Assembly (NCBI GenBank): GCA_038062025.1
Contig: JBBTXW010000006.1
Span: forward strand, 1 to 49,593
DNA: 49,593 nucleotides
DNA from: Patescibacteria group bacterium
GTDB taxonomy: Bacteria; Patescibacteriota; Microgenomatia; UBA8517; UBA10165
Reading direction: 5' to 3'
The notes beneath the pieces are model-generated. The model was given only the letters and a program-made list of their open reading frames with translations. It was not told the DNA's origin and did not search any database. Shown here piece after piece: positions 7,137-49,593 of the stretch. A program made the position numbers and the translations under genes. Numbering within the stretch: position 1 is the stretch's first letter; the number at the start of each line of letters is the position of its first letter.

Positions 7137-7211
7137 AATTTGGTGATTAGTGATTAGTGATGAGTGATTAGTGGGTGAAATTTCCAATCACCCGTCACTT
7201 GTCACTCGTCA
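7137..7211. repeat. Low-complexity hairpin spacer (gtgattag units) between rplR and rpsE
   Basis: gtgattagtgattagtgatgagtgattagtgggtga / tcacccgtcacttgtcactcgtcacta. Confidence 0.6.
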
Positions 7212-7535
7212 CTAAAAAGAGAGCTCCTTTCTTGCGCCTTCTGCCAATGCTTTTATTTTCCCATGATACTTTTTTGAGCCTCTATCAAAGACAACCTCTT
7301 TCAATTTTGCAGCTTTTGCATATTGACCTAAAATTTCTCCAACCTTTTGGGCAACATCAACGCTTTTGCCCGAAATTCCGGTATCTTTATCACTTGCTGA
7401 AACTAATGTTTTTCCGGTTTTGTCATCGATTATTTGAGCATATATGTGAGTATTTGAAACGAACACAGAAAGTCTTGGCCTGTTTTTACCAAGCTTTGCA
7501 CGAGTTCTTCTTGCCCTAATTTTTGTGTTTTTCAT
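7212..7535 (-). CDS. rplR: 50S ribosomal protein L18
   Basis: [20 protein letters not shown]...[20 protein letters not shown] is L18-like. Confidence 0.92.
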
Positions 7536-8098: not shown

Positions 8099-8479
8099 TT
8101 ACCAAACTAGGGCGAGTACTTCTCCCCCAAGTTTTTCTTTCCATGCCTTTCTGTTTGACATTACACCTTTTGGTGTCGAAACAATTGATATTCCAACTCC
8201 GCCTAAAGGACGAGGAAGTTCGTTCTTTTTTCTATAGATTCTTAAGCCCGGTTTTGAAACATTTTTTATTCCTGTGATTCGCGGCTGTCGTCTTTTGAAA
8301 GTTAAGACAATTTGCAAATTTCTGCCCTCTTTTTTGAAGCTTTCAACATAACCTTCTTCTTTTAAAACCCGTATAACCTCTTTTTTAAGGCGAGAATGTG
8401 GCACAGAAAGTTCGGCGGTTTTTATTGAAACCGCATTTCTAATTCTTGTTAATAAGTCGCCGACTGGATCAGTAATCAT
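8099..8479 (-). CDS. rpsH: 30S ribosomal protein S8
   Basis: MITDPVGDLLTRIRNA... is the S8 N-terminus. Confidence 0.95.
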   Translation of the reverse strand: MITDPVGDLLTRIRNAVSIKTAELSVPHSRLKKEVIRVLKEEGYVESFKKEGRNLQIVLTFKRRQPRITGIKNVSKPGLRIYRKKNELPRPLGGVGISIVSTPKGVMSNRKAWKEKLGGEVLALVW

Positions 8480-8563
8480 ATTTTGTTAGAGCAGGAGAGC
8501 CAGAGAGTAGAAGAGTGTAAATTACTCTTGCTCTTCCACTCTTTAACTCTTTTACTCTATTTT
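8480..8563. repeat. Low-complexity palindromic spacer element (family A, copy 2, inverted) between rpsN and rpsH
   Basis: Its reverse complement aligns with 2457..2538 over most of its length, including an exact 23-mer. Confidence 0.7.
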
Positions 8564-8749
8564 CTACCATGATGCTTTTCTAATTCCTGGGATTTCTCCT
8601 TTTGCTGCGAGTTCTCGAAAACATAGTCTGCAAATTCCAAAGCGCCTTATAAAAGCACGTGGACGGCCACAACGCGCACATCGGTTGTGGTAGCGTGTTT
8701 TAAACTTTAGATCTTTTGTTTCTCTTGCAATTTTTGATTTCTTAGCCAT
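8564..8749 (-). CDS. rpsN: 30S ribosomal protein S14 type Z (zinc)
   Basis: 61 aa with CxxC...CxxC (CARCGRP...CRLCFRE). Confidence 0.93.
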
Positions 8750-8814
8750 GGTAGTAGGATAAGAGGATAAGAATGATGAGTCTGAAAGTCAAGACTCATC
8801 ATTTTAATCTTAGT
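8750..8814. repeat. Low-complexity hairpin spacer (ggataag units) between rplE and rpsN
   Basis: taagaatgatgagtct-gaaagtca-agactcatcattttaatctta. Confidence 0.6.
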
Positions 8815-9366
8815 TTACTCTTTTCCTCCTTTCTTAAAGGGCATTCCGAGATCTTCCAAAAGCTTCTCTGAAACTTTTGGATCGCAATTTGTCACAATTG
8901 TTATCTCCAAACCCCGAATTCGACTTATTTTTCCAAGGTCGATTTCTGGGAAAACTGTGTGTTCTGTAATTGCCAGGGTGTAGTTGCCTCTTTGATCAAA
9001 CGAAGAGCGGGGTACCCCCCTAAAATCTCTAATTCTTGGCAGAACTACATTTATTAATTTACTCAAAAACGTGTGCATCCTTTTGCCCCTTAAAGTCGCC
9101 ATCATTCCAACAGGTTGGCCTTCGCGAACATTAAAACCTGCAATCGATTTCTTGCTACGGGTAACCTTTGGCTTTTGGCCAACAATACTTGCAAGTTCTG
9201 ATAAAGCTTTTCCTTGCTCTTCTTTGTTTTCTTTTATTTCTCCAATTCCCATGTTGACAACAACTTTTTTTATTTGGGGTTTGGCCATAGGGCTTGGCTT
9301 CGCCATAGGGCTTGGCTTCGCCATAGGGCTTGGCTTCGCCATAGGGCTAGTTGAATTTTGAGGCAT
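8815..9366 (-). CDS. rplE: 50S ribosomal protein L5 with a repeat-containing N-terminus
   Basis: The L5 core is clear (VVVNMGIGE...PRIRDFRG...GNYTLAITEHTVFPEI). The N-terminus reads MPQNSTSP(MAKPSP)x3MAKPQ. The ATG at 9366 overlaps the rplX stop as TAATG. Alternative in-frame ATGs run down to 9288. Confidence 0.9.
   Translation of the reverse strand: MPQNSTSPMAKPSPMAKPSPMAKPSPMAKPQIKKVVVNMGIGEIKENKEEQGKALSELASIVGQKPKVTRSKKSIAGFNVREGQPVGMMATLRGKRMHTFLSKLINVVLPRIRDFRGVPRSSFDQRGNYTLAITEHTVFPEIDLGKISRIRGLEITIVTNCDPKVSEKLLEDLGMPFKKGGKE
9278..9348 (-). repeat. 18-nt in-frame tandem repeat in the rplE 5' end
   Basis: agggcttggcttcgccat occurs as 3 perfect copies (9289..9342) with degenerate flanking copies. 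Encodes (MAKPSP)n. Confidence 0.9.
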
Positions 9367-9713
9367 TATAACTTTGCTCCTTTTGTATCAATTTGTCTTT
9401 TGCATTTTTTACAAATTCTTACCTTACCTGCGCCAAGCCGGCCGCTACCATTTTTCAGGATTTGCAATCCAATTCTTGTTTGCTTTTTGCAGTGTGGGCA
9501 AACTAGAGCAATATTTGCCAAAGGAAGAGGTCTTGAGAATTCGATCAAGCCCCCAGCCTCACCATTTGGGCCTGCTTTTCTTGCACGCTTGTAAATGTTG
9601 ACGCCTGAAACAACGACTTTATTCTCTTTTTTGGAGAGTTTGTCGATTTTCCCGGTTCTTCCTTTGTCTTTTCCGGCGGTTATTAATACTGTGTCTCCGA
9701 TTTTGAGTCTCAT
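9366..9713 (-). CDS. rplX: 50S ribosomal protein L24 (Cys4 variant)
   Basis: MRLKIGDTVLITAGKDKGRTGKI is the KOW motif. The C-terminal part carries CPHC...CKKC. Confidence 0.9.
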   Translation of the reverse strand: MRLKIGDTVLITAGKDKGRTGKIDKLSKKENKVVVSGVNIYKRARKAGPNGEAGGLIEFSRPLPLANIALVCPHCKKQTRIGLQILKNGSGRLGAGKVRICKKCKRQIDTKGAKL

Positions 9714-39580: not shown

Positions 39581-39606
39581 GTGAGGCTATTGTAGCAGAA
39601 AGGAGA

Positions 39607-39810
39607 TTAGTTGGTGTATGTTTTCCACTCTGTAGCTTGGTCGCTTGCTTGAGTTGGAGTTGTGGAAACTTGTGCGCCAGGGGCCGGGGGAGTTTGTTTT
39701 AGAGAAAAACCACCCTTCCCGTAAAAATAAGCACCTGTGCCGACTGCAATTAAAGCAATTGCAAAGAGAAGAATTATTCCTATATTTCCGCGCTGGGGTT
39801 TGTTGTTCAC
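39607..39810 (-). CDS. Small membrane-anchored protein, possibly a 5' remnant of a secreted protein
   Basis: TM segment plus a P/T/Q-rich linker, ending ...TEWKTYTN* just before the alaS promoter region. Confidence 0.4.
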   Translation of the reverse strand: MNNKPQRGNIGIILLFAIALIAVGTGAYFYGKGGFSLKQTPPAPGAQVSTTPTQASDQATEWKTYTN

Positions 39811-39814
39811 TTGC

Positions 39815-40162
39815 TTACTGGCTTTCTATGTCTAAGACTGCTTTTAAGGCAATTTCCACTTCAGACATTTTTTCATCGTTGATTTTTCCTACTTTTTCTA
39901 CTAAGCGCTTTCTATCGATGGATCTGATTTCTGTGGTTAAGATTTCAGACTCTTGTTTAACTCCCGACTCTTTCCCGATAGCTACTTTTTCTATACCGGG
40001 ATAATACACTTTTGTAGTTATGGGGATAGCCACAATTTTTGGCCAGTAAGAGTTGATTGTGTTATTGGAGATAATCAAAACTGGCCTTTTTTTTCTAATT
40101 TCTGTGCCAAAGCCGGGATCTAAATTTGCGATCCATATTTCGCCCCGTTTTATTCTGGCCAT
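39815..40162 (-). CDS. mazF: MazF/PemK-family endoribonuclease toxin
   Basis: RGEIWIANLDPGFGTEIRKKRPVLIISNN is MazF/PemK-like. Confidence 0.85.
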   Translation of the reverse strand: MARIKRGEIWIANLDPGFGTEIRKKRPVLIISNNTINSYWPKIVAIPITTKVYYPGIEKVAIGKESGVKQESEILTTEIRSIDRKRLVEKVGKINDEKMSEVEIALKAVLDIESQ

Positions 40163-40383
40163 GACTCAAGGTCAATTGCCTCCCATTCTTTGTTAACTTC
40201 TCTATAAAGTTTAGCATTAGCTTTGTAGCTTTTTATCAATTCCTTTTTAAGGTTTTTTTTTCTATTAAGCTTACCTTGAACAGCCACTGCAATGAAGCGA
40301 CTACGACTGCGTGAAGGAATTTCTCTCCTTAGCTGGTTTGCTAGCTTTGTAGGAACAGTTATGTTTATTCTTTGATATTGCAT
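40150..40383 (-). CDS. Ribbon-helix-helix (CopG/MazE-like) antitoxin
   Basis: Start set at MQYQRINITVPTKLANQLRRE (ATG at 40383). 13-nt overlap with mazF. Confidence 0.7.
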   Translation of the reverse strand: MQYQRINITVPTKLANQLRREIPSRSRSRFIAVAVQGKLNRKKNLKKELIKSYKANAKLYREVNKEWEAIDLESWPE

Positions 40384-40392
40384 TACACACTG

Positions 40393-40421
40393 ATAATACA
40401 TACTGGGGGTTGATTTGTCAA
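40393..40421 (-). promoter_or_regulatory. Promoter of the RHH-mazF operon (TTGACA-17-TATTAT), with the ATG 9 nt after the -10
   Basis: -35 at 40421..40416, -10 at 40398..40393, ATG at 40383..40381. Confidence 0.55.
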
Positions 40422-40840
40422 GAAGTTAATGGTTTGCCGGCGCGGTGGAAGAATCTTCTTCCTTGCTCTTGGACTCTATGGATTGGATGTTTTACTCCCT
40501 CTTTAATTAAAGCCCTTGCTCTTTCTTCAACTGATGGTTCCTCTTGGATGGTTTCTACAAAAGCTTCTTCTTTTTTGACAAAATGGGAAACGAGACCTGA
40601 GAGGGTTTTTACGTCTGAAAGATGCCCTATATCTTTTACCCCCTCAACAAAATGTCTTAAGCCCTCAATTGGACGTGTGACAGAGTTTGTTAAAACATGT
40701 GCATCGTCCAATAATTTATTTGCGCGATCTATGGTTTTTTGAACATTTCTGAGAATCAAGAAAACCTGAACGCCTACTGCAACAAGAAGGCCAGTTAGGA
40801 TTGTTACGGTTACAAAGAGGAGAATTTGGACAGGATCCAT
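40418..40840 (-). CDS. DUF948-like membrane protein
   Basis: Start set at MDPVQILLFVTVTILTGLLVAVGVQVFLILRNVQKTIDRANKLLDD. One TM segment followed by helical repeats. Confidence 0.45.
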   Translation of the reverse strand: MDPVQILLFVTVTILTGLLVAVGVQVFLILRNVQKTIDRANKLLDDAHVLTNSVTRPIEGLRHFVEGVKDIGHLSDVKTLSGLVSHFVKKEEAFVETIQEEPSVEERARALIKEGVKHPIHRVQEQGRRFFHRAGKPLTS

Positions 40841-40895: not shown

Positions 40896-41504
40896 TTAAT
40901 TTGTAATTTTTAATTCTTTTGTTGTGCTTTTGCCGGAGCGGGAGGTGGATTTTATTTCTACTTTATCTCCGAGCTCGGCTTTATCAAAAGATACTGAGAA
41001 TGTTCCATTTTTTTCAAGTAGTATCGCGCGGCGATTTACCTCCAAAGTTGCGCTAGGGGAAGTTTTTCCAGATACAACAATTTCGTTTCCTCTTGGAGCT
41101 ATATCAACTTTTAAAGACGGCGGGGCGACAAAAAGAAAATATTGTCTTGCTAAATACCCTGCAACAAGGAGAACCACAAAAACTGCTGACGCAACTATTG
41201 TATTTTGTGGAGTCCAGATTGTTCGGCCTCCGAGAGGAAGTTCTTTTTCTCTTCTTGCAAACGGGCTTGGGGGGAATTCGCGTCGAACCAAGGCCCCCAC
41301 TCTTTCATTGTCCACCCCAATCACATTTGCGAAACTTCTGACAAAGCCTGAGGCAACGGTTAGGTTTGGCAGCTCTTCCCAATTAGATTCTTCCAGGGCT
41401 ACAAGGAACTTCTCCTTTATCTTCGTTTCCCTTGCAATTTTTTCAATAGACCAGCCGCGAGATTCGCGGGCATCTTTTAGGATTTGGCCGACAGTTTGCA
41501 TCAC
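40896..41504 (-). CDS. RodZ-like HTH membrane protein
   Basis: N-terminal HTH (VGQILKDARESRGWSIEKIARETKIKEKFLVALEE), one TM segment and a C-terminal beta domain. Confidence 0.65.
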   Translation of the reverse strand: MMQTVGQILKDARESRGWSIEKIARETKIKEKFLVALEESNWEELPNLTVASGFVRSFANVIGVDNERVGALVRREFPPSPFARREKELPLGGRTIWTPQNTIVASAVFVVLLVAGYLARQYFLFVAPPSLKVDIAPRGNEIVVSGKTSPSATLEVNRRAILLEKNGTFSVSFDKAELGDKVEIKSTSRSGKSTTKELKITN

Positions 41505-43570
41505 TAGTTTGCGCTTTGCGCAAGAAACTCTTCCGGGTTTGAAATTAGCACTTCTCTTGGTTTTGAGCCTTCTGCTCTCCCTACAACGCCTGCATACTCA
41601 AGTTGGTCAAGAAGACGGGCTGCACGGGCATAACCAATCGAGAGTCTTCGTTGCATAAGGGAGGCTGAGGCCTTGTCCATATTACAAACGATTCTCACAG
41701 CATCGGAAAAAAGCTCATCCCGATCTTCCAAACTTGTGCTACCGAATCCGCTACCACCTTTTGGCGGCATACTGGTCACTTCCTCGGTATATTGAGGTGT
41801 AACCCCATTCTTCCTTAAGAATTCGATTAGGCGATTTGTATCGCTGTCTGCAACGTAGGCTCCTTGGATACGACGGGGGCGCGCCTCATCTGGTGGAAGA
41901 TAGAGCATGTCACCCCGCCCCAGAAGCTTTTCTGCACCTGGAGTATCAAGGATAACCCGAGAGTCTACAAGAGAAGACACTGCAAATGCGATACGAGCCG
42001 GAATATTTGCTTTAATAAGTCCAGTTAAAACATCAACTGATGGCCTTTGGGTAGCAATCAACATGTGGATTCCAGTTGCGCGGGACATCTGGGCAAGACG
42101 GGTAATTGAGTCTTCAACTTCGGCAGGAGACAGAAGCATGATGTCTGCCAGCTCGTCAACTACTAAAACGATATAAGGAAGAGCCTGAAATCCTGACATT
42201 TCGTTATAGCTTTGGATGTTTCGAGCTCCAACCTCTGCAAACATTTTGTATCGGTTGTCCATCTCGGCAGTTAGATATTTAAGGGCAGAAATTACTTTGT
42301 CTGCTTCTGTTATGACCGGGGCCAAAAGATGCGGGATTCCATTAAACTGGGTAAACTCAACGCGTTTTGGGTCAACAAGAATAAATTTAACTTCTGCTGG
42401 GGATGCTCGGAAAAGAATTGATGCTAAAAACGAATTCAGAGCGATAGATTTTCCGGATCCTGTTTGACCTGCAATTAATGAATGGGGCATTTTTGCAAGG
42501 TCTGCAATCATTGGTTTTCCTGAGACATCAAGTCCTAATGCGACTGCAAGTTTTGATTTAGACTCGCGCATTACATCCGATTCCAATACCCCGCGCAAAG
42601 TTACGAACTCAGGAGATCGGTTTGGAAGTTCTATTCCGACTAAAGAGCGGCCGGGAATTGGAGCCTCAATACGAATTTGGCCGGAAGGAGCAGCAAGAGC
42701 TAAAGCTAAATCGTTTGAAAGATTGGTAATTCTTGATAGTTTTGTACCAAGGGCAACTTCGATTGCGTATTGAGTAACCGCAGGTCCGAGGTTTACTTCT
42801 ACAACCTTGGATTTAACGCCAAAAGACTCTAGCGTCCGCTCAATTATGTCTGCATTTGCTTTAATATCTCCGCGGTCTGCTTTGCCTGAGTGGGTATCAG
42901 AAAGCAAAGAAAGAGGGGGGTAGTCCCAAATTCCTGGTTGGCCGGGAATATTGACTGCGGGGGCAATTGCCTCTTTTTGGAGAACTCCGGGTTTTGCGTT
43001 CTGGGTTTGGTTTCCTCCGGTTACTTTGATATCTTTGCCGACATTTAGATTAAAAGCTTTGGAGTTTTGAGTTCCTAAAATTCTGTGACGAAGAGAAATC
43101 AACATTGAGATAAAGAAAGAGACTATGCGGTCAAGGGAGGTGTTGAAAAGAATTAAAAGGCCGATTACTGCACCACCCAAGAAAACTACAGCTGCACCAA
43201 AGGAGGTAATAAGGCTTGCAACTCCTGCCCAAATTTCGTCCCCTAGTTTTCCAGCTTGAGTTAAGCCTGCGGCGCAGAGGGCGAAAATTACCCCTCCCAT
43301 AAGAACTGTTGGATTACTTAGAGGAGTTTTTAATTTTGAGAGCATTAATCCTGAGACAATAAGGAAGAATGGGATAAAAAGTGAGGTCCAAGAAAAGTAG
43401 TCTGTAAAAAACTTGTTGATTGAGTAGAGGATTAGACCCTGGCGGGAAAATGAAACAATAATTAAGCCTGCAAGTGCAAAGCACAAAATTTGTGTAATTG
43501 AAACTACTGTATGTTTCTTAAGTTTTAGGTTGAAAGAGCTTTTTAACAAAGATCTTCTTCGTCTGGGCAT
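41504..43570 (-). CDS. ftsK: DNA translocase FtsK/SpoIIIE
   Basis: N-terminal TM segments, Walker A GQTGSGKS, and a gamma wHTH domain (LMQRRLSIGYARAARLLDQLE). Confidence 0.93.
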   Translation of the reverse strand: MPRRRRSLLKSSFNLKLKKHTVVSITQILCFALAGLIIVSFSRQGLILYSINKFFTDYFSWTSLFIPFFLIVSGLMLSKLKTPLSNPTVLMGGVIFALCAAGLTQAGKLGDEIWAGVASLITSFGAAVVFLGGAVIGLLILFNTSLDRIVSFFISMLISLRHRILGTQNSKAFNLNVGKDIKVTGGNQTQNAKPGVLQKEAIAPAVNIPGQPGIWDYPPLSLLSDTHSGKADRGDIKANADIIERTLESFGVKSKVVEVNLGPAVTQYAIEVALGTKLSRITNLSNDLALALAAPSGQIRIEAPIPGRSLVGIELPNRSPEFVTLRGVLESDVMRESKSKLAVALGLDVSGKPMIADLAKMPHSLIAGQTGSGKSIALNSFLASILFRASPAEVKFILVDPKRVEFTQFNGIPHLLAPVITEADKVISALKYLTAEMDNRYKMFAEVGARNIQSYNEMSGFQALPYIVLVVDELADIMLLSPAEVEDSITRLAQMSRATGIHMLIATQRPSVDVLTGLIKANIPARIAFAVSSLVDSRVILDTPGAEKLLGRGDMLYLPPDEARPRRIQGAYVADSDTNRLIEFLRKNGVTPQYTEEVTSMPPKGGSGFGSTSLEDRDELFSDAVRIVCNMDKASASLMQRRLSIGYARAARLLDQLEYAGVVGRAEGSKPREVLISNPEEFLAQSAN

Positions 43571-43653: not shown

Positions 43654-45330
43654 TTAAACTTCCACAACCACAGGGAGAATCATGGGGCGGCGGCCGGTTT
43701 CGTCAAAGAAGAAGCGTTCTAAGAATTCAACAGCTTTTACTTTAACATCCCTCGCGTCGCCTTTTTTGTGCTTTGCGCGAATCTCATTTGCAACCGCGTT
43801 TGCTGCACGCTCTAAAAACTGTTTGTTTTCTTTAACGAATACAAATCCTCGGCTTATTATGTCAGGATCGCCGATAAGAACACTATTTGCTTTATCAACT
43901 TGAAGAACAACAATTACAACTCCTTCGCGAGCTAGGGTTTTTCTGTCTGATAAAACTACCTCGCCAACATCTCCCAAACCAAGGCCGTCTACGAGCAGGC
44001 TTTTAACCGGGATATGCTCCCCTGCTTTTACTTTCCCATCGCGGGTAAATTCCATAACATCACCATGGCGAAGCTCTAAAGTTTCCTCTTTCTTCCAACC
44101 CATCTTTTGGGCGAGGGCGTTGTAGGCTCTGTTATGGCGAATTGTTCCTCCAATTGGGATTAAATATTTGGGACGAACTAAAGACAGAAGCATCTCGATA
44201 TCTTTTCTGGAGCCGTGGCCTGAGACGTGAAGGTCTTCTTGGGTGTCGTAGTAATGGACTTCTGCTCCCTTTTCAATAAGTTGATCGACCACATAATTTG
44301 TTGAAAAATGGGTTCCTGGAGGGGCTGGGTCTGCTGAGAAGACAACCATATCAGGGTTTTTAATTTTTAAGAATTTATGGTCATCTGTTGCGACTCTGTA
44401 AAGTGCTGATCCGACTTGGCCATAACAGCCTGAGATTATATAAACAACTTTTTCAGGAGGCAAGGACCTTGCCTGTCTATCCATTACCACATCTTTATCA
44501 TTGTAGGTAATATTTCCCAGGGTCCTTGCAATTGCGACTTTTTTTTCAATTGAGCGTCCGACAAAAATTACTTTTCTTCCAAGAGAGCGAGAAATATTAA
44601 TAACCTGCTGCATTCTTGATATGTTGGAAGAGATTGTTGTAACAAAAATTCGCCCCTTTGCATCTTTGAAGATGTTGCCAATGTTTTTTTCAAGTTCAGC
44701 CTCAGACATTGTATAACCTTCAGAAGTTGACCCAAGCGAGTCTGAGGCCATTGCAATTACACCGCCTTTTGCCAAGGTTGCTGCTTTTGCAATATCAAAG
44801 GGTTTCCCGTCAACCGGGGTCCAGTCAAATTTGTAATCCGGAACGTGGAAGAATCTTCCAATTGGGGTGCCTATACAAAAGCCCAAGGAGTCAGGAACCG
44901 AATGGGTAATTCTAAATGCGTCCACGATGAAGCTACCTGCAGTAGTCGGGGCACCTTCAGGATCAATTATATTTACCTTCTTGCCGCCAATTCCATAATC
45001 CACCAGTTTGTCTTCAATAAACCCTGCGACTAGTTTTGCCGAGTAAATTGAGACATCTGGAAGTTGGTCAAGAAGAAAAGGAAGTGCTCCGAAATGATCC
45101 TCATGAGCGTGGGAGATGAAAACTCCTTTGATTTTGTCTTTGTTTTTAACTAAATAGGAGAAGTCGGGCACAACAAGATCAACTCCAAAAGCTGCCTCTT
45201 CCGGGAAGCCAACACCGCAATCAAGAACTATAATTTCCGCACTTCCCCGATCGGGAATATATTCGTAGACGTATAAGTTTTCAGTAACGTCTATTGTGCC
45301 TGAAATTGCAATGAATCTAAGTTTGTCCAT
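43654..45330 (-). CDS. rnj: Ribonuclease J
   Basis: Metallo-beta-lactamase HAHEDHFGALP, beta-CASP region, 558 aa. Confidence 0.92.
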   Translation of the reverse strand: MDKLRFIAISGTIDVTENLYVYEYIPDRGSAEIIVLDCGVGFPEEAAFGVDLVVPDFSYLVKNKDKIKGVFISHAHEDHFGALPFLLDQLPDVSIYSAKLVAGFIEDKLVDYGIGGKKVNIIDPEGAPTTAGSFIVDAFRITHSVPDSLGFCIGTPIGRFFHVPDYKFDWTPVDGKPFDIAKAATLAKGGVIAMASDSLGSTSEGYTMSEAELEKNIGNIFKDAKGRIFVTTISSNISRMQQVINISRSLGRKVIFVGRSIEKKVAIARTLGNITYNDKDVVMDRQARSLPPEKVVYIISGCYGQVGSALYRVATDDHKFLKIKNPDMVVFSADPAPPGTHFSTNYVVDQLIEKGAEVHYYDTQEDLHVSGHGSRKDIEMLLSLVRPKYLIPIGGTIRHNRAYNALAQKMGWKKEETLELRHGDVMEFTRDGKVKAGEHIPVKSLLVDGLGLGDVGEVVLSDRKTLAREGVVIVVLQVDKANSVLIGDPDIISRGFVFVKENKQFLERAANAVANEIRAKHKKGDARDVKVKAVEFLERFFFDETGRRPMILPVVVEV

Positions 45331-45359
45331 ACTTTAGAGGAGGTCTAGCTGTTCTGCGT
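44801..45359 (-). repeat. Left copy of a 4234-bp-spaced direct repeat (rnj 5' part + UDG 3' end)
   Basis: Aligns without indels to 49035..49593. The last ~75 nt are near-identical, while the rest shows many third-position differences. Confidence 0.8.
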
Positions 45360-45948
45360 TATTATCTTCTTTTGTATCACCAATTTTAACTAAAATCTCA
45401 GGGAGTCTTTTGAAGTCTTCCTTAAACTGTTCCATTACCGCCCCTGCACGAAGAGCAGCAGCGGGGTGATACATTGGGACTATTGTAACATCTTTCCCCT
45501 TCCATCTCACAACTCTAGGTTTTCCGTGGACGCGGGAGATCATTTCACCGGGTAGAAATTTGCCCATAGAGAAACGGCCTAAAGTTACAATTACTTTTGG
45601 ATTTATTATTTCAATTTCCCGATCAACGTATGGTTGGAAGCTTTTGATTTCTTCGGGTAATGGGTCGCGGTTTTCGGGCGGGCGGAAGCGAACAATGTTT
45701 GAAATATAAACATCCTCGCGTTTTAAGCCGATTGATTCAAGAGTTCTTTCAAGAAGTTTTCCTGCTTGGCCAACGAATGGTCTTCCTTGTTGGTCTTCAT
45801 GGAACCCTGGGCCTTCACCAAGAAAATATAAATCGGCATCAGGATTCCCCTCGCCGAACACAAGCTGTGTTGCACCAACTCTTAGCGGTAGGCTTTTGTC
45901 GTTCTCCATTTCTTTTTTGAGTTCACTTAGCGCAACTTTTTTGTCCAT
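45334..45948 (-). CDS. Uracil-DNA glycosylase, family 4
   Basis: GEGPGFHEDQQGRPFVGQAGKLL and MYHPAAALR. Start set at MDKKVAL. Confidence 0.88.
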   Translation of the reverse strand: MDKKVALSELKKEMENDKSLPLRVGATQLVFGEGNPDADLYFLGEGPGFHEDQQGRPFVGQAGKLLERTLESIGLKREDVYISNIVRFRPPENRDPLPEEIKSFQPYVDREIEIINPKVIVTLGRFSMGKFLPGEMISRVHGKPRVVRWKGKDVTIVPMYHPAAALRAGAVMEQFKEDFKRLPEILVKIGDTKEDNNAEQLDLL

Positions 45949-46003
45949 AAGTAAAAAATACATTAATTTGACAGGTCTTGACTAGGGGTGTTTTAATTTA
46001 TAT

Positions 46004-46798
46004 GTGTACTGCTCAAAACTGCTAATTACACTTCCTCTTCTACTTCTTGCGCTAGTTGTTTCTCCCGTTGCCGCGCAAGACACAACAAGTGTTTCCGATC
46101 GCGTGACAAACAAGCAAGAGAAGCGTACCGAGAAAGTTGAGGCCCGCCAAGAAAAGCGCGAAGCACGACTAGAAAAGAGAGAAGAGCGCGTGGAATCAAG
46201 ACAAGTGAAACGCGAGGATAGGCAAGCAACCAGAGAGGCAAAGCGTGAAGCAAGAATTGAAAAGCGAGAAGAGTTTTTGGCATCCGTTTCCGCAAGAAGA
46301 GAAGAGATCAAAGAAAAGATTCAAGAGCGCAGAGCAGAGTTAAAAGAGAAACTTGCCGAATTTAGGGATCAGAAAAAAGCAGAAATTGCAGAAAAAATTG
46401 ACCAAAAGTTGGGTGAGATAAACGAGAACAGAACAACAAAGATGTCCCAATCACTTGATAAAATGTCTGCAATCTTAGATAAGCTTGAGTCCATAATCTC
46501 TGAGCGGGGAGGAAACGCAGAAGCTCAAGCTGCAGTTGATGGTGCACGAACAGCTGTAAGCACAGCACAAGATGCGGTTTCTGCTCAAGCCGGGAAAGAT
46601 TACGGAGTAACGGTAAATACAGAAACCACTGTAAAGTCCGATGCTCAGACTTCAAGGAACTCTCTACATACTGATCTTAAGGCAGCCCATAATTTGATAG
46701 TTGCCGCAAGGCAAGCTGTAGCAAAGGCAATTTCAACGACAAAGTCCACAGTTGGTGGACAGAAAGGAGCGACCGGAAGTGCAACACAGCAACAGTAA
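46004..46798 (+). CDS. Secreted coiled-coil protein (hypothetical)
   Basis: Signal-like N-terminus (LLITLPLLLLALVVSPVAAQ), then a degenerate K/R/E-rich repeat (EKRE...). GTG start. Confidence 0.55.
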   Translation: MYCSKLLITLPLLLLALVVSPVAAQDTTSVSDRVTNKQEKRTEKVEARQEKREARLEKREERVESRQVKREDRQATREAKREARIEKREEFLASVSARREEIKEKIQERRAELKEKLAEFRDQKKAEIAEKIDQKLGEINENRTTKMSQSLDKMSAILDKLESIISERGGNAEAQAAVDGARTAVSTAQDAVSAQAGKDYGVTVNTETTVKSDAQTSRNSLHTDLKAAHNLIVAARQAVAKAISTTKSTVGGQKGATGSATQQQ

Positions 46799-46808
46799 CA
46801 AAGGGTTT

Positions 46809-47039
46809 ATGGGAATAGTGGTTGTAGCCGTTTTAGCAGTTGCTTTGATTGCTGGAGGAGTTTTCTTTTTCCTAAACGGGACGAGTCTATTGAAGAAGAC
46901 TGACAATTATGGAAAGATTGTGGCCGAACTAACCGCCGAGACTCCAGATGAGTTAGATAAAGAACTTCAAGCTCTTGATCTAGGGGTGGATATAGATTCA
47001 GAATTTACAGAAATAGACTCCGACCTCTCCAGTCTTTGA
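46809..47039 (+). CDS. Small membrane protein (hypothetical)
   Basis: Start set at MGIVVVAVLAVALIAGGVFFFL. Acidic tail. Confidence 0.4.
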   Translation: MGIVVVAVLAVALIAGGVFFFLNGTSLLKKTDNYGKIVAELTAETPDELDKELQALDLGVDIDSEFTEIDSDLSSL

Positions 47040-47062
47040 CGTTATGTTAATTACCACAAAGA

Positions 47063-47090
47063 TTGCACAGTGAAAATCTTGCGATATAAT
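47063..47090 (+). promoter_or_regulatory. Promoter of the MNT-HepT operon (TTGCAC-16-TATAAT) with the ATG 6 nt after the -10 (leaderless)
   Basis: -35 at 47063..47068, -10 at 47085..47090, ATG at 47097. Confidence 0.55.
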
Positions 47091-47096
47091 CTAGAT

Positions 47097-47501
47097 ATGC
47101 TAAACGAAAGCTTAATGTCAGAAATACGAAATGCCTTAAAACCAGAGCCTAAAATAATTGCTGCTTACGTATTGGGTTCTTATGTTTTTGGCAAGGAAAC
47201 TGGTGAAAGTGATTTTGACCTTGCTGTGGTGGTTGAAAGTAGAAAAGACATTTCTTTCGACCACATATACAATCTTCTTTCCGAAATAAAGTTCCCCAAA
47301 GATTTAGATTTGTCCGTTGTTGACAGAAGCTCTTCTCCTTTGTTTTTATTCCAAGCAATAAACGGTAGATGTGCTTATGCTCGCTCAGGGGAGGATAGAG
47401 GCTTATTTGAAGCATCTATTGCTGAGAACTACTACGATACGGCCCATATGCGAAAAATATATTATTCGCATCTGAAAGAGAAATTTCCATATGCCGGCTA
47501 A
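47097..47501 (+). CDS. mntA: Minimal nucleotidyltransferase (MNT-type antitoxin)
   Basis: GSYVFGKETGESDFDLAVV fits the GSx(n)SDxD motif. Start moved to the ATG at 47097. Confidence 0.8.
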   Translation: MLNESLMSEIRNALKPEPKIIAAYVLGSYVFGKETGESDFDLAVVVESRKDISFDHIYNLLSEIKFPKDLDLSVVDRSSSPLFLFQAINGRCAYARSGEDRGLFEASIAENYYDTAHMRKIYYSHLKEKFPYAG

Positions 47502-47916
47502 CTTGTCTTTAGTCTCCAAGAAGCTTGATTTCTTAAACGATCAAATAAGAAAAATCGAGCAAATGACTTTTACCAAAGAATCTTTTGTCCAAAACCCAGA
47601 TATTCACGACTTGGTCGTGTTTCGCCTACAACAAGCAGTTGAAACTTGCATTGATATTGCAACCCATATCATCGCCCAGCTTGATGTTCCACAAAAAGAA
47701 ACCGCAAAGGATGCGTTTTTGTTTTTAGGGGAGAAGGGATTTGTTGATCTTGAGTTGGCTAAAAGAATGGGAAAGGCGGCAGATTTCAGAAACAGAGTTG
47801 TGCATGGATATAATGATTTTGACTTTAATTTGCTGTTTGAAGATTATAAAGAGAATTTGAATGATCTGCGTACATTTGGCGCCCAAATATTAAAGTTTCT
47901 AGAAAGCACTTCTTAG
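47491..47916 (+). CDS. hepT: HepT (DUF86/HEPN) toxin
   Basis: RNRVVHGY fits the Rx4HxY HEPN motif. 11-nt overlap with the MNT gene. Confidence 0.8.
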   Translation: MPANLSLVSKKLDFLNDQIRKIEQMTFTKESFVQNPDIHDLVVFRLQQAVETCIDIATHIIAQLDVPQKETAKDAFLFLGEKGFVDLELAKRMGKAADFRNRVVHGYNDFDFNLLFEDYKENLNDLRTFGAQILKFLESTS

Positions 47917-47988
47917 TCTGTGAATTTGAAGGTGGAGAGGATTTTGTTGAGCAACTGATTATCAGAAAGTATAAACGATAACGTATGA

Positions 47989-48918
47989 TTAGTAACAAGC
48001 CCCTGCGTTAATGCTGTCTATCGGAACAATTGGTATATCTATGTTCATTGATGTTTGTGAACCGCCAAGGCCATATGTAGGAGGATTAAATTTTGGGTTG
48101 GATTTATATCCTGAAGGAACTACACCATGATCTATGGAAACATTCAGGCTGTCATTCGGTTGAATGTTTTGCGAGAAACTAAAATTACCGCCACCATCAG
48201 TTGTAGTTTCCGCATAAACCGAATATTCAGGCATTTTAGAAAGCACCACAGGAGCACCACCTACGCCTACCTCATTAGGTTCGGGTAGAGTGTTACAATT
48301 TGTATCAGCATAGATTCTTCCTGTTACTCTAACCGTTATACCAGAAGGTACGGTAATACCTTTTGTACACACATTTGTCATGGAACCATCTGAAGCCTGC
48401 AACTGCAATCTAGGATTGTATGTACCAGATCTCCCATATGTATGTTCTATTATCCCGTTTGATTGCTTTAAATCAGTATCCCAACTCCCGTTACCGTCAA
48501 AATCCCATTGAGCTCCTGTCATATAGGTGTTGTTGTAACTTGAGAAGCTGGAAATTAGTGTAACTAATAAAGGATCACTACTGCCTCCGCCCAGTTTTCC
48601 ATAAGTCACGTTTATGCTACATGGATTTTTCTTCGGGGTTGGAGTTGGGGTAGGTTTAGGCGTAGTTGTAGGTTTGGGTGTAGATGATTTATTTTGAGAA
48701 GTTGGTATTGGTGTGGGCTTGTCGCTTTCGGTTGTTGGTTGAGCGCTAGGAGCCGCTTGAGTTAAAGATTGAGAGGCTGGAGTCTCGATAGATACAATCT
48801 TGGATTTTATTTTAACGTACGCTACACCACCAATAGCACCTACTGCTAGTACTACTAACAAAATTAAAACCGGTGTAAAGCCGTGTTGGGAGTTTTGAGA
48901 CATTAGTTTATGATGCAC
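47989..48918 (-). CDS. Secreted protein with a P/T-rich linker, a PKD-like domain and a Cna-B/SdrD-like domain
   Basis: TM/signal segment, TPKPTTTPKPTPTPTP linker, WDFDGNGSWD...HTYGRSGTYNP (PKD-like), and GRIYADTNCN...TTTDGGGNFSF. Confidence 0.6.
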   Translation of the reverse strand: MHHKLMSQNSQHGFTPVLILLVVLAVGAIGGVAYVKIKSKIVSIETPASQSLTQAAPSAQPTTESDKPTPIPTSQNKSSTPKPTTTPKPTPTPTPKKNPCSINVTYGKLGGGSSDPLLVTLISSFSSYNNTYMTGAQWDFDGNGSWDTDLKQSNGIIEHTYGRSGTYNPRLQLQASDGSMTNVCTKGITVPSGITVRVTGRIYADTNCNTLPEPNEVGVGGAPVVLSKMPEYSVYAETTTDGGGNFSFSQNIQPNDSLNVSIDHGVVPSGYKSNPKFNPPTYGLGGSQTSMNIDIPIVPIDSINAGACY

Positions 48919-48934
48919 TTGTCTTAAGAATGTG

Positions 48935-49564
48935 TCAAACAGAGGCTGTCAGGATTTCTTTCCTTAATTCGTTAGGAAGTGACTTGTTTATATCTTTTAT
49001 AAGTCTAGACGCAAACAACACTTCAATATATACCGGTTTTCCATCAACCGGAGTCCAGTCAAATTTATAATCAGGGACATGGAAGAAGCGGCCAATTGGG
49101 GTGCTTATGCAAAATCCTAAAGAGTCGGGAACTGAGTGGGTAATTCTGAATGCGTCTACTATGAAGCTTCCAACTGTGGTTGGCGGGCCTTCCGGGTCAA
49201 TTATATTTACCTTTTTGCCGCGAATTCCATAGTCAGTTAGTTTATCTTCAATAAAACCTGCAACAAGTTTTGCTGAATAGATTGAAACATCAGGGAGCTG
49301 ATCAAGAAGAAATGGCAAAGCTCCAAAATGGTCTTCATGGGCATGAGAGATAAAGACTCCTTTTATTTTTTCGCTGTTTTTAACAAGATATGAAAAATCA
49401 GGAACTACCAAATCCACGCCAAAAGCGGCCTCTTCGGGGAAGCCTACCCCACAGTCTAAAACTATTAATTCCGCGGGCCCTTTTTCGGGGACATATTCAT
49501 AGACATAGAGGTTTTCTGTAACGTCTATTGTTCCTGATATTGCAATGAATCTAAGTTTGTCCAT
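48935..49564 (-). pseudogene. Truncated, diverged second copy of the RNase J N-terminus (~177 aa homologous plus a 32-aa unrelated tail)
   Basis: Colinear with RNase J residues 1-177 at the protein level with scattered substitutions. Homology ends after ...WTPVDGKP. Confidence 0.7.
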
Positions 49565-49593
49565 ACTTTAGAGGAGGTCTAGCTGTTCTGCGT
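49035..49593 (-). repeat. Right copy of the direct repeat
   Basis: See 44801..45359. Confidence 0.8.
49568..49593 (-). CDS. 3' end of a second UDG-like gene copy (partial, runs off the window)
   Basis: 49565..49593 is identical to 45331..45359, which is the UDG stop and its last codons. Confidence 0.5.

What the first reader, a model, noticed from the sequence alone, without database searches (positions are those of the whole stretch)
44801..49593. A diverged duplicate of the RNase J 5' part brackets a 3.7-kb accessory segment
44801..45359 and 49035..49593 align without indels at a 4234-nt offset. The protein-level match covers RNase J residues 1-177 with scattered substitutions and many silent differences. 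In contrast, the first ~75 nt of the gene plus the upstream UDG 3' end are almost identical (2 mismatches). The right copy loses homology right after ...WTPVDGKP and runs into a 32-aa unrelated tail. Between the copies lie UDG, two secreted/membrane proteins, MNT/HepT and a PKD-domain protein. This pattern fits three scenarios. One is an island that inserted into rnj while carrying a replacement 5' end. Another is a segmental duplication with later divergence and partial gene conversion. The third is a strain-variant mis-join, since the window ends inside the repeat.
Basis: seen in the sequence. Interest (0 to 1): 0.65.

Follow-up and report, generated by a model that had tools for sequence, protein, structure and literature searches.

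The report
Captured second allele beside RNase J
A groundwater ultra-small bacterium (Candidatus Blackburnbacteria) carries two diverged versions of one variable gene neighbourhood side by side, leaving a truncated RNase J fused to a scrap of another gene; this is ordinary recombination scarring, and a perfect 140-base repeat inside it is what broke the assembly at the window's end.

Summary
A longer public contig of the same genome shows a 1,130-nt direct repeat at about 80% identity. It covers most of a uracil-DNA glycosylase gene (UDG) plus RNase J (rnj) codons 1-177.

This is not a duplication that later diverged. Synonymous sites are near saturation (pS 0.73, dN/dS about 0.02). The truncated copy is closer to intact RNase J genes of other lineages (97.6% and 94.6% aa) than to the resident gene (92.9%).

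The "unrelated" 32-aa tail is the in-frame 3' end of a DUF2283 gene, joined at 4-5 nt of microhomology.

Related Blackburnbacteria carry one copy of the layout metallophosphatase-(DUF2283)-surface protein-toxin/antitoxin-UDG-rnj-ftsK. Here two alternative versions sit in tandem.

Inside the repeat is a perfect 140-nt tract (R) that is only 57-71% conserved in relatives. It marks a recent crossover or gene conversion. The window ends on its last 55-mer, an assembly-graph loop. One assembly gives the insert-free chromosome plus a separate 4.2-kb loop contig; others give the tandem.

Best reading: a 4.2-kb allele from a related lineage was captured by illegitimate joining plus homologous recombination. 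The route is unresolved between single-crossover integration of a circle (Campbell-type) and homology-facilitated illegitimate recombination followed by conversion. This is a known kind of event, of modest interest.

The parts
43654..45330 (-). Resident full-length RNase J (rnj, 558 aa). Its first 177 codons form the right-hand part of repeat copy 2.
   Evidence: Pfam hits to Lactamase_B, RNase_J_b_CASP, RMMBL and RNase_J_C. It has orthologues in all relatives, next to ftsK.
44801..45918 (-). Repeat copy 2: most of UDG plus rnj codons 1-177. It is about 80% identical to copy 1, most of which lies beyond the window end.
   Evidence: blastn of L001 4032-5160 against 8266-9394 gives 79.8% over 1130 nt with 2 gaps.
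45305..45444 (-). R copy 2: a perfect 140-nt tract covering the last ~37 UDG codons, the stop codon, the 3-nt spacer and rnj codons 1-9. It is a crossover or gene-conversion tract, and it is the repeat node in the assembly graphs.
   Evidence: The alignment shows 100% identity between the copies, against 57-71% to all relatives. Contigs L002, L088, the 4560-nt contig carrying P0103 and the window itself all start or end on its first or last 55-mer.
45334..45963 (-). UDG-superfamily gene of unit 2. The ORF is 209 aa; the likely start gives 204 aa.
   Evidence: Pfam PF03167, E 1e-34. It is 83% aa identical to UDG'. Its nearest relatives are L006 and L007.
46004..46798 (+). Secreted coiled-coil protein (sec264), cargo of unit 2.
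   Evidence: ORF with a signal-like N-terminus. Homologues lie directly upstream of UDG in L004, L006, L007, L010 and L056.
46809..47039 (+). Small membrane protein (g76), cargo of unit 2.
   Evidence: Gene call in L001 at 7145-7375. A homologue sits in the same position in L007.
47097..47916 (+). MNT/HepT toxin-antitoxin pair: MNT at 47097..47501 and HepT at 47491..47916.
   Evidence: Pfam Polbeta 4.7e-13 and NTP_transf_2; HepT-like 1.8e-25.
47914..47945 (-). Relic of the last 10 codons plus stop of a g342-like gene (KILSTFKFTD*), lying just after the PKD gene.
   Evidence: It matches the 3' end of g342 in unit 1 at 30 of 32 nt (L001 2924-2955 against 6239-6270).
47989..48903 (-). PKD/SdrD_B-like surface protein (304 aa), counterpart of the SdrD-like 299-aa protein of unit 1.
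   Evidence: Weak Pfam PKD and SdrD_B hits. Relatives at 45-63% identity lie in the same position between DUF2283 and UDG in other Blackburnbacteria. The N-terminal anchor and linker are similar to SdrD299.
48935..49033 (-). 3' end of a DUF2283 gene (32 codons plus stop), fused in frame to rnj'.
   Evidence: BLASTP to the unit-1 DUF2283 gives 51% over 35 aa, E 3e-9. Identity to L008 is 71% and to L010 65%.
49034..49564 (-). rnj': RNase J codons 1-177 of a different allele, truncated at ...WTPVDGKP.
   Evidence: It is 93.2% aa identical to rnj, 97.6% to P0225 and 94.6% to L006. Only the Lactamase_B part hits in Pfam.
49030..49051 (-). Illegitimate junction: GAT GGA AAA CCG|GTA TAT. It has 4-5 nt of exact microhomology (AACC[N]) within an 8-9/12 near-match between rnj and DUF2283. 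A 6-bp hairpin, CCGGTT-N7-AACCGG, overlaps it.
   Evidence: Codon-level comparison with rnj and with DUF2283 homologues of L008, L010 and L095; hairpin.
49539..49593 (-). Last 55 nt of R copy 1, covering the UDG' 3' end (49568..49593), the spacer and the rnj' start. The window ends here.
   Evidence: It matches 45305..45359 exactly over 55 nt. L002 starts at the same base.

Best explanation
The locus is a tandem of two different alleles (a natural partial diploid) at a recombination hotspot of Candidatus Blackburnbacteria. Reading along the gene strand, the chromosome runs as follows.
- A: metallophosphatase, g86, DUF2283, SdrD-like protein, g342, g77/AbiEii, UDG'.
- R: a 140-nt tract.
- C: rnj'(1-177)::DUF2283 C-terminus, PKD protein, HepT/MNT, g76, sec264, UDG.
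- R again.
- D: rnj, ftsK and onward.

C plus one R is 4,234 bp. It is a circular permutation of a contiguous stretch, from mid-DUF2283 to rnj codon 177, of the same neighbourhood in a related lineage.

Proposed steps, all inferred:
1. A donor fragment was taken up or excised.
2. Its ends were joined at a 4-5-nt microhomology (rnj ...GAT GGA AAA CC / DUF2283 ...GGN GAA CC). This created the in-frame rnj'::DUF2283 chimera.
3. The resulting circle, or an equivalent ends-in molecule, integrated by one homologous crossover in the UDG-rnj homology. This is Campbell-type insertion-duplication.
4. Gap or heteroduplex repair at the crossover left the perfect 140-nt tract R in both copies.

The result keeps one intact rnj, adds a second UDG, and leaves a 209-aa truncated RNase J fusion that lacks the beta-CASP, RMMBL and C-terminal domains and is most likely inert. 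The MNT/HepT pair in the insert could oppose loss of the segment through R x R recombination.

The window ends inside the repeat because 140 nt of exact identity exceeds the assembler's k of 55.

I put about 0.8 on the general reading: a real tandem, a second allele from another lineage, a microhomology junction, and R as a recombination tract. I put about 0.45 on the specific circle-integration route; the confidence field gives that second, narrower figure.
For: **Shown directly**
- The repeat is 1,130 nt at about 80% identity and contains a perfect 140-nt core.
- R is among the least conserved stretches across relatives, at 57-71% identity. Its 100% identity between the copies is therefore not due to constraint.
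- For rnj' against rnj, pS is 0.73, pN is 0.057 and dN/dS is about 0.02. The divergence therefore accrued in functional genes.
- rnj' is nearest to the intact RNase J P0225 (97.6%) and to L006 (94.6%), ahead of the resident rnj (92.9%). UDG' is nearest to L008, and UDG to L006 and L007.
- The tail is the 3' end of DUF2283, in frame, joined at a microhomology.
- The two units match along their whole length: DUF2283, a surface protein, a g342 relic, a toxin-antitoxin module, UDG and rnj.
- Single-copy versions of each layout exist. L008 resembles A. L004, L006, L007, L094 and L095 resemble C.
- None of 55 related genomes has a second UDG or an rnj fragment.
- No recombinase is found in C.

**Assembly evidence**
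- A-R-C-R-D appears in the GCA_964361765.1 contig. A-R-C appears in L003. C-R-D appears in the window contig.
- The insert-free form A-R-D is assembled in L087 and has every gene intact. This is the recipient that the circle model predicts.
- Coverage of the loop contig (6.3x) is close to that of the flanks (6.8x), from the contig names.
Against: - Segment phylogeny does not separate this route from homology-facilitated illegitimate recombination. Both rnj' and rnj fall in the L006/L007/P0225 clade, and only UDG' leans towards L008.
- Homologous crossover between sequences 20-27% diverged is inefficient.
- The 140-nt tract could equally be a later conversion, unrelated to integration.
- No donor genome with a near-identical C segment was found. 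The best PKD304 relative is 63% identical.
- No reads were available, so the tandem form, the insert-free form and a free circle cannot be quantified.
- DNA uptake by this organism is assumed, not shown.
Confidence: 0.45

Rival explanations
1. Homology-facilitated illegitimate recombination (HFIR), followed by a separate gene conversion. In this route the recipient carried A-UDG'-rnj'(full length)-ftsK. A long linear donor fragment (DUF2283 C-terminus, PKD ... UDG, rnj, ftsK...) was anchored by homologous recombination somewhere downstream. Its other end joined illegitimately inside the recipient's rnj' at codon 177, replacing rnj' codons 178 onward. A later intrachromosomal conversion made the 140-nt tract identical in both copies.
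For: The junction has the 4-5-nt microhomology typical of HFIR. HFIR is documented in naturally transformable bacteria and has been invoked for arrays of displaced gene remnants (PMC3240628; PMC5361080). The route needs no circular intermediate. UDG' and rnj' are adjacent, as an intact operon would be. The phylogeny is equally compatible with it.
Against: It needs an extra, independent conversion event to create R. The insert-free A-R-D contig (L087) would then be a secondary deletion or an assembler shortcut, not the ancestor. At four diagnostic residues (28, 30, 33, 131) the resident rnj matches L008, the relative whose layout resembles A, while rnj' matches L006 and L007, whose layout resembles C. 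That is the opposite of what this route predicts.
Confidence: 0.3
2. The tandem is not the true chromosome. The chromosome is A-R-D, as in L087. The 4.2-kb loop is either an extrachromosomal circle excised by R x R recombination, or it belongs to a co-occurring strain, and some assemblers threaded it into the chromosome.
For: The assembly graph is a simple loop on a 140-nt exact repeat. The R2 assembly gives A-R-D (18.3 kb, 6.8x) and a separate loop contig whose two ends are 55-mers of R (4204 nt, 6.3x). The window and several contigs end exactly on R 55-mers.
Against: A-R-C (L003) and C-R-D (the window contig) were each assembled through R in other assemblies, and the co-assembled genome contig holds the whole tandem. 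C has no replication or recombinase gene, so a stable plasmid is implausible. The rnj'::DUF2283 junction needs R on both sides in any genome that carries it. Loop coverage is close to chromosomal coverage, which fits one integrated copy per genome.
Confidence: 0.12
3. An ordinary tandem duplication arose within this genome and the two copies then diverged in place, with gene turnover and patchy gene conversion.
For: The junction (rnj codon 177 joined to mid-DUF2283) is exactly what a tandem duplication of the DUF2283-to-rnj segment would produce. The units match along their length. A conversion tract exists.
Against: The truncated rnj' shows dN/dS of about 0.02 with synonymous sites near saturation, and has no frameshift or stop. 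That is not expected of a fragment drifting without function. The copies are not each other's closest relatives. An intact gene 97.6% identical to rnj' exists elsewhere. The two layouts occur separately, in single copy, in different species.
Confidence: 0.05

Closest known systems
Campbell-type insertion-duplication: single-crossover integration of a non-replicating circle, as used in insertion-duplication mutagenesis
   Same: An insert is flanked by direct repeats of the homology region. One copy of the gene is truncated and one is intact. The insert plus one repeat is a circular permutation of a contiguous fragment. The event can be reversed by recombination between the repeats.
   Different: This case is natural rather than engineered. 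The homology is only 73-80% identical, apart from a perfect 140-nt core. The circle would have had to form by a microhomology join of a chromosomal fragment from another lineage. The intermediate was not observed.
Homology-facilitated illegitimate recombination in naturally transformable bacteria (Acinetobacter, Pseudomonas stutzeri, Streptococcus pneumoniae; PMC3240628), and its proposed role in arrays of displaced type VI effector, immunity and Rhs gene remnants (PMC5361080)
   Same: Foreign DNA is captured using a conserved neighbouring gene as the anchor. One end is a short-microhomology junction. The displaced allele is left behind as a truncated remnant next to the new one.
   Different: Here the retained remnant is the 5' part of a housekeeping RNase gene, not a toxin 3' end or an immunity gene. 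The homologous anchor cannot be located. An extra 140-nt identity tract is present.
Transformation-generated partial diploids (tandem duplications) in Streptococcus pneumoniae (Johnston et al. 2013, PMC3784515)
   Same: A tandem structure holds both an intact and an altered copy of an essential gene. It is bordered by repeats and is potentially unstable.
   Different: The pneumococcal duplications are 100-900 kb, are bounded by IS-derived repeats, and start as identical copies. Here the unit is 4.2 kb, the two copies are different alleles, and the novel junction is a microhomology join.
Integrase-mediated genomic islands that insert into a gene end and carry a replacement end
   Same: An accessory segment carrying a toxin-antitoxin pair and surface proteins lies next to a duplicated gene end, and the target gene stays intact.
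   Different: There is no integrase or recombinase. There is no short att repeat at the true boundaries. The duplicated part is a 1.1-kb diverged homologue, and the cargo is the allelic counterpart of the resident variable region.

Membership tests
Tandem duplication followed by in-place divergence | The two copies are each other's closest relatives. | tested here: not met
   rnj' is 97.6% identical to P0225 and 94.6% to L006, against 92.9% to rnj. UDG' is 85.1% identical to L008 against 79.8% to UDG.
Tandem duplication followed by in-place divergence | The non-functional truncated copy shows relaxed selection: dN/dS near 1, indels or stops. | tested here: not met
   pS is 0.73, pN is 0.057 and dN/dS is about 0.02. 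There is no indel or stop in 177 codons.
Integrase-mediated integrative island | A tyrosine or serine recombinase is encoded in or next to the segment. | tested here: not met
   A Pfam scan of all ORFs of the segment and of the upstream unit found no recombinase or transposase.
Integrase-mediated integrative island | Short identical att repeats lie exactly at both island boundaries. | tested here: not met
   The identical 140-nt tract lies inside a 1,130-nt diverged repeat. The true novel junction (rnj' joined to DUF2283) has only 4-5 nt of microhomology.
Campbell-type insertion-duplication | Direct repeats of the homology region flank the insert, with one truncated and one intact gene copy. 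| tested here: met
   The order is UDG'-rnj'(1-177), then the insert, then UDG-rnj(558 aa).
Campbell-type insertion-duplication | The insert plus one repeat equals a circular permutation of a contiguous donor segment. | tested here: met
   The gene order of C matches the single-copy layouts DUF2283, SdrD/PKD protein..., UDG, rnj in L095, L094 and L007. The junction joins the two ends of that segment.
Campbell-type insertion-duplication | An insert-free allele exists with the same flanks. | tested here: inconclusive
   L087 is A-R-D, with A and R 100% identical and 3 SNPs in 11.6 kb of D. It may instead be an assembler bypass of the loop, and no reads were available.
Homology-facilitated illegitimate recombination | An illegitimate junction with 3-12 nt of microhomology at one end. 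| tested here: met
   AACC[N] is shared between rnj codons 176-177 and DUF2283 homologues.
Homology-facilitated illegitimate recombination | A homologous anchor crossover at the other end, seen as a switch of ancestry downstream. | not testable with these tools
   Neither a donor nor a recipient reference genome is available. PKD304 relatives are at most 63% identical.
Assembly artefact (strain mis-join) | The novel junction is present in only one assembly and sits on a shared k-mer. | tested here: not met
   The rnj'::DUF2283 junction is identical in the GCA_964361765.1 contig, the window contig, L002, L003, L090 and L091. No repeat of k-mer length lies at the junction.
Assembly artefact (strain mis-join) | The contig end coincides with a repeat longer than k. 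| tested here: met
   The window ends on the last 55 nt of the 140-nt exact repeat. L002, L088 and the 4560-nt contig also end on R 55-mers. This explains the window end, not the structure.
MNT/HepT type II toxin-antitoxin pair | Adjacent, overlapping genes for a minimal nucleotidyltransferase and a HEPN (HepT) protein. | tested here: met
   Polbeta E 4.7e-13 and HepT-like E 1.8e-25, both above the Pfam gathering scores. The ORFs overlap by 11 nt. Activity was not tested.

The most novel reading that the evidence does not exclude
The 4,234-bp unit (C plus R) may be a recombinase-free, toxin-antitoxin-stabilised cassette. It would cycle between a circular form and an integrated form by homologous recombination at the 140-nt tract in the conserved UDG-rnj boundary. 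It would spread between Blackburnbacteria lineages this way, moving surface-protein alleles using only host RecA and a housekeeping-gene anchor. The coexistence of A-R-D and loop contigs in one assembly would then reflect a real population of excised and integrated states.
Probability: 0.1. Interest if true: 0.6.

Novelty: new member of a known kind. Interest (0 to 1): 0.3.

Why it matters
It is a clean natural record of recombination between lineages in an uncultivated ultra-small bacterium of the Candidate Phyla Radiation. A whole variable neighbourhood from a relative (surface proteins plus a toxin-antitoxin pair) was captured using the conserved UDG-rnj genes as homology. The join can be read to the base, and a fresh recombination tract is visible.

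It shows that the metallophosphatase-UDG-rnj-ftsK backbone is a hotspot for gene turnover in Microgenomates.

It is also a practical warning. A 140-nt exact repeat creates an assembly-graph loop that different assemblers resolved as an insert-free chromosome, a tandem, or broken contigs. Presence or absence of this segment in metagenome-assembled genomes should not be read as strain variation without read-level support.

The truncated RNase J::DUF2283 ORF should not be annotated as a second RNase J.

Tried and rejected
- **Separating the two routes by phylogeny.** I compared nucleotide and protein identities for four pieces: UDG before R, R itself, rnj codons 10-177, and the rnj 3' part. The comparison covered 13 relatives. 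It was inconclusive. Both rnj copies fall in the L006/L007/P0225 clade, and only four residues hint that rnj pairs with the unit-A lineage.
- **Finding the donor.** A protein search with PKD304 gave nothing above 63% identity. Exact look-ups of PKD304, rnj' and UDG returned only contigs of this same population.
- **Looking for more contigs that leave UDG'.** P0223 gave the three contigs already known.
- **Looking for the same arrangement elsewhere.** None of 55 related loci has a second UDG or an rnj fragment.
- **Explaining the identical tract by functional constraint.** Rejected, because R is the least conserved stretch among relatives.
- **A site-specific element.** There is no recombinase and no tRNA in the window.
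- **Promoter and terminator scans.** They gave only chance-level hits, apart from the hairpin at the junction.
- **Scans not used.** I did not run the JGI metagenome scan, because the population comes from ENA and Logan data that the exact look-ups already cover.

Full report
**1. The observation**

The two stretches 44801..45359 and 49035..49593 align at an offset of 4234 nt without indels, at 81% identity. All genes involved lie on the minus strand. They are ftsK (43570..41504), a full-length RNase J gene rnj (45330..43654, 558 aa), a UDG-superfamily gene (45963..45334), and a 209-aa ORF, rnj' (49564..48935).

The first 177 residues of rnj' are 93% identical to RNase J. Over those 177 codons, 78 codons differ synonymously and 12 non-synonymously. 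The last 55 nt of the window match 45305..45359 exactly.

They are a secreted coiled-coil protein, a small membrane protein, an MNT/HepT pair and a PKD/SdrD-like surface protein.

**2. What lies beyond the window**

An exact look-up of rnj' found the 54,281-nt contig CAYIBT010000002.1 of GCA_964361765.1. Locus L001 is taken from it and is 100% identical to the window over the 10,659 nt compared. L001 continues 4,590 nt past the window end.

A complete second UDG (UDG', 204 aa, 83% aa identity to UDG) precedes rnj'. Upstream of it lie, in order, a metallophosphatase, g86, DUF2283, an SdrD-like 299-aa protein, g342, g77 and AbiEii.

The repeat is 1,130 nt at about 80% identity. It starts near the UDG start codon and ends at rnj codon 177. 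At the nucleotide level the repeat is bounded and is not a plain large duplication.

**3. The "unrelated" tail**

The 32-aa tail of rnj' (VYIEVLFASRLIKDINKSLPNELRKEILTASV) is homologous to the C-terminus of the DUF2283 protein of the upstream unit (E 3e-9). It matches DUF2283 genes of relatives even better, for example L008 ...GGEPVYIEVLFASKLIKDIGKSLPKKLKKEIFASA.

At the codon level the join is rnj' GAT GGA AAA CCG | GTA TAT ATT GAA. DUF2283 homologues read GAC/GGT GGN GAR CCT GTT TAY ATT GAR there. That gives 4-5 nt of exact microhomology inside an 8-9/12 near-match. The join is in frame and keeps the native DUF2283 stop codon and the spacer before the next gene.

A second relic supports the same picture. 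The last 10 codons of a g342-like gene (KILSTFKFTD*) survive just after the PKD gene. They match the end of g342 in the upstream unit at 30 of 32 nt.

The two units therefore correspond along their whole length: DUF2283, an SdrD/PKD surface protein, g342, a toxin-antitoxin module (AbiE against MNT/HepT), UDG and rnj.

**4. Relatives**

The organism is a Candidatus Blackburnbacteria (Microgenomates, Candidate Phyla Radiation) from groundwater.

Across 55 related loci the backbone metallophosphatase-UDG-rnj-ftsK is conserved. In most Woesebacteria the metallophosphatase abuts UDG. In Blackburnbacteria 1.4-2.3 kb of variable genes intervene. The rnj-ftsK gap varies from 86 nt to 5 kb.

Single-copy versions of both layouts exist.
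- L008 has metallophosphatase, DUF2283, ..., g77, AbiEii, UDG, rnj, ftsK. This resembles the upstream unit.
- L004, L006, L007, L010 and L056 have (g76), sec264, UDG, rnj. This resembles the inner unit.
- L095 has metallophosphatase, g87, DUF2283, SdrD-like protein, x, UDG, rnj, ftsK.
- L094 carries a Phd/ParE pair in the variable slot.

No other genome has a second UDG or an rnj fragment.

**5. Divergence pattern**

For rnj codons 10-177, rnj' against rnj gives pS 0.73, pN 0.057 and dN/dS of about 0.02. Against L006, rnj' gives pS 0.51.

At the protein level rnj' is closest to P0225 at 97.6%. P0225 is an intact RNase J from another metagenome that continues normally past residue 177. Next come L006 at 94.6% and then the resident rnj at 92.9%. 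UDG' is closest to L008 (85.1%), UDG to L006 and L007, and UDG' to UDG is 79.8%.

The copies therefore diverged as functional genes in separate lineages and were brought together later. This rejects the idea of duplication followed by divergence.

**6. The 140-nt tract R**

Within the repeat, L001 4506-4645 is identical to 8740-8879 (window 45305..45444). The tract spans the last ~37 UDG codons, the stop codon, the spacer and rnj codons 1-9.

With about 78% flanking identity, a run of 140 matches has a chance probability of roughly 1e-13 (my estimate). Among relatives this stretch is only 57-71% identical, less than its flanks, so constraint cannot explain the identity.

It is a recent recombination tract, either a crossover with gap or heteroduplex repair, or a gene conversion.

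**7. Assembly behaviour**

R is longer than k = 55, so it forms a repeat node with a loop in the assembly graph. The contigs recovered fit that picture.

| Assembly | Contig | Path |
|---|---|---|
| Window contig | 49,593 nt | last 55-mer of R, then C-R-D |
| Same genome as the window (inferred) | 4,560 nt, carries P0103 | ends at the contig position of the first 55-mer of R (inferred from its length and the truncated 186-aa UDG'; its DNA was not read) |
| Hainich H51 R2 | L002, 4,204 nt, 6.3x | the loop C with 55-nt R overlaps at both ends |
| Hainich H51 R2 | L087, 18,335 nt, 6.8x | A-R-D with no insert, every gene intact |
| Hainich H51 R3 | L003 | A-R-C |
| Hainich H51 R3 | L088 | last 55-mer of R, then D |
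| Co-assembled genome GCA_964361765.1 | 54,281 nt | A-R-C-R-D |
| Logan ERR3858114 | L090 | last 30 nt of R, then C, including the junction |
| Logan SRR32696705 | L091 | within C, including the junction |

In L087, A and R are 100% identical to the co-assembled contig, and D differs by 3 SNPs in 11.6 kb.

The rnj'::DUF2283 junction is therefore real, because no k-mer repeat exists there that could cause a mis-join. The window end, by contrast, is an assembly effect.

The contigs cannot say whether the population is uniformly tandem, mixed with an insert-free form, or holds an excised circle. Loop coverage close to flank coverage, and the lack of any replication gene in C, favour one integrated copy per genome.

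**8. Mechanism**

C plus one R (4,234 bp) is a circular permutation of a contiguous stretch, from mid-DUF2283 to rnj codon 177, of a neighbourhood laid out like the inner unit.

The route needing fewest events has two steps. First, the ends of such a fragment join at the microhomology. Second, the circle integrates by a single homologous crossover in the UDG-rnj homology, and repair at the crossover creates R. This is Campbell-type insertion-duplication. It predicts the intact A-R-D form as the ancestor or as a revertant.

The main rival is homology-facilitated illegitimate recombination. It has been described in transformable bacteria and invoked for arrays of displaced gene remnants (PMC3240628; PMC5361080). 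It needs a separate later conversion to make R.

Segment phylogeny cannot decide between them. Four residues at which rnj matches L008 and rnj' matches L006/L007 lean towards the first route.

Transformation-generated tandem duplications in pneumococcus (PMC3784515) are a looser parallel.

DNA uptake in this lineage is assumed from general knowledge of Candidate Phyla Radiation genomes. I did not test it here.

**9. Consequences**

One intact rnj is kept. Two intact-looking UDG genes are present.

The 209-aa chimera keeps only the N-terminal metallo-beta-lactamase part and lacks the beta-CASP, RMMBL and C-terminal domains. I infer it to be inactive. Because it sits 3 nt after UDG', it is probably transcribed with it (inference).

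The insert adds a different surface protein and an MNT/HepT pair. The pair could counter-select loss of the segment through R x R recombination (inference).

**10. Verdict**

The feature is a real, well-resolved example of a known kind of event, capture of a foreign allele at a hotspot by illegitimate plus homologous recombination. An assembly-graph loop explains why the window ends inside the repeat. Interest is modest.

Noticed in passing
window 49033..49051 (- strand): A 6-bp inverted repeat, CCGGTT-N7-AACCGG, sits exactly on the rnj'::DUF2283 junction. The resident rnj has no perfect hairpin at the same place (it reads CCGGTTGACGGGAAACCC). It could be chance, or it could have favoured breakage there.
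   Followed up: partly
L001 514..973 (beyond the window); also L095 2157..2637 and L010 12625..13105: A small overlapping gene pair, g86 (no Pfam hit) plus DUF2283, recurs at variable positions around UDG-rnj in Blackburnbacteria. In L010 it lies between rnj and ftsK instead of upstream. It behaves like a mobile two-gene module, possibly a toxin-antitoxin pair.
   Followed up: partly
L001 3148..3986 (beyond the window): The AbiEii-family gene is short (218 aa). It is preceded by an overlapping 77-aa ORF that is 90% identical to its L008 counterpart, while AbiEii itself is only 58% identical. The conservation across this module is very uneven.
   Followed up: no
window 45334..45963 and L001 4002..4616: Both UDG-superfamily proteins carry the GEGPG and HPAAALR motifs but contain no cysteine at all. 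They therefore cannot bind the iron-sulfur cluster typical of classical family 4 UDGs.
   Followed up: no
window ~39600..40570 (L001 13783..14577): A PemK-family toxin gene with small flanking ORFs lies downstream of ftsK and an HTH_25 gene. The same arrangement recurs in L095. This stretch of genome is dense in toxin-antitoxin modules (AbiE, MNT/HepT, PemK).
   Followed up: no
window 9284..9348: A perfect 18-nt tandem repeat of 3.6 copies (GCCATAGGGCTTGGCTTC).
   Followed up: no
record titles of L006, L009, L012 and others: Many public co-assembled genomes that clearly belong to Microgenomates/Blackburnbacteria, judging by rnj and synteny, are titled 'uncultured Gammaproteobacteria bacterium'. 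This looks like mislabelled taxonomy in those records.
   Followed up: no
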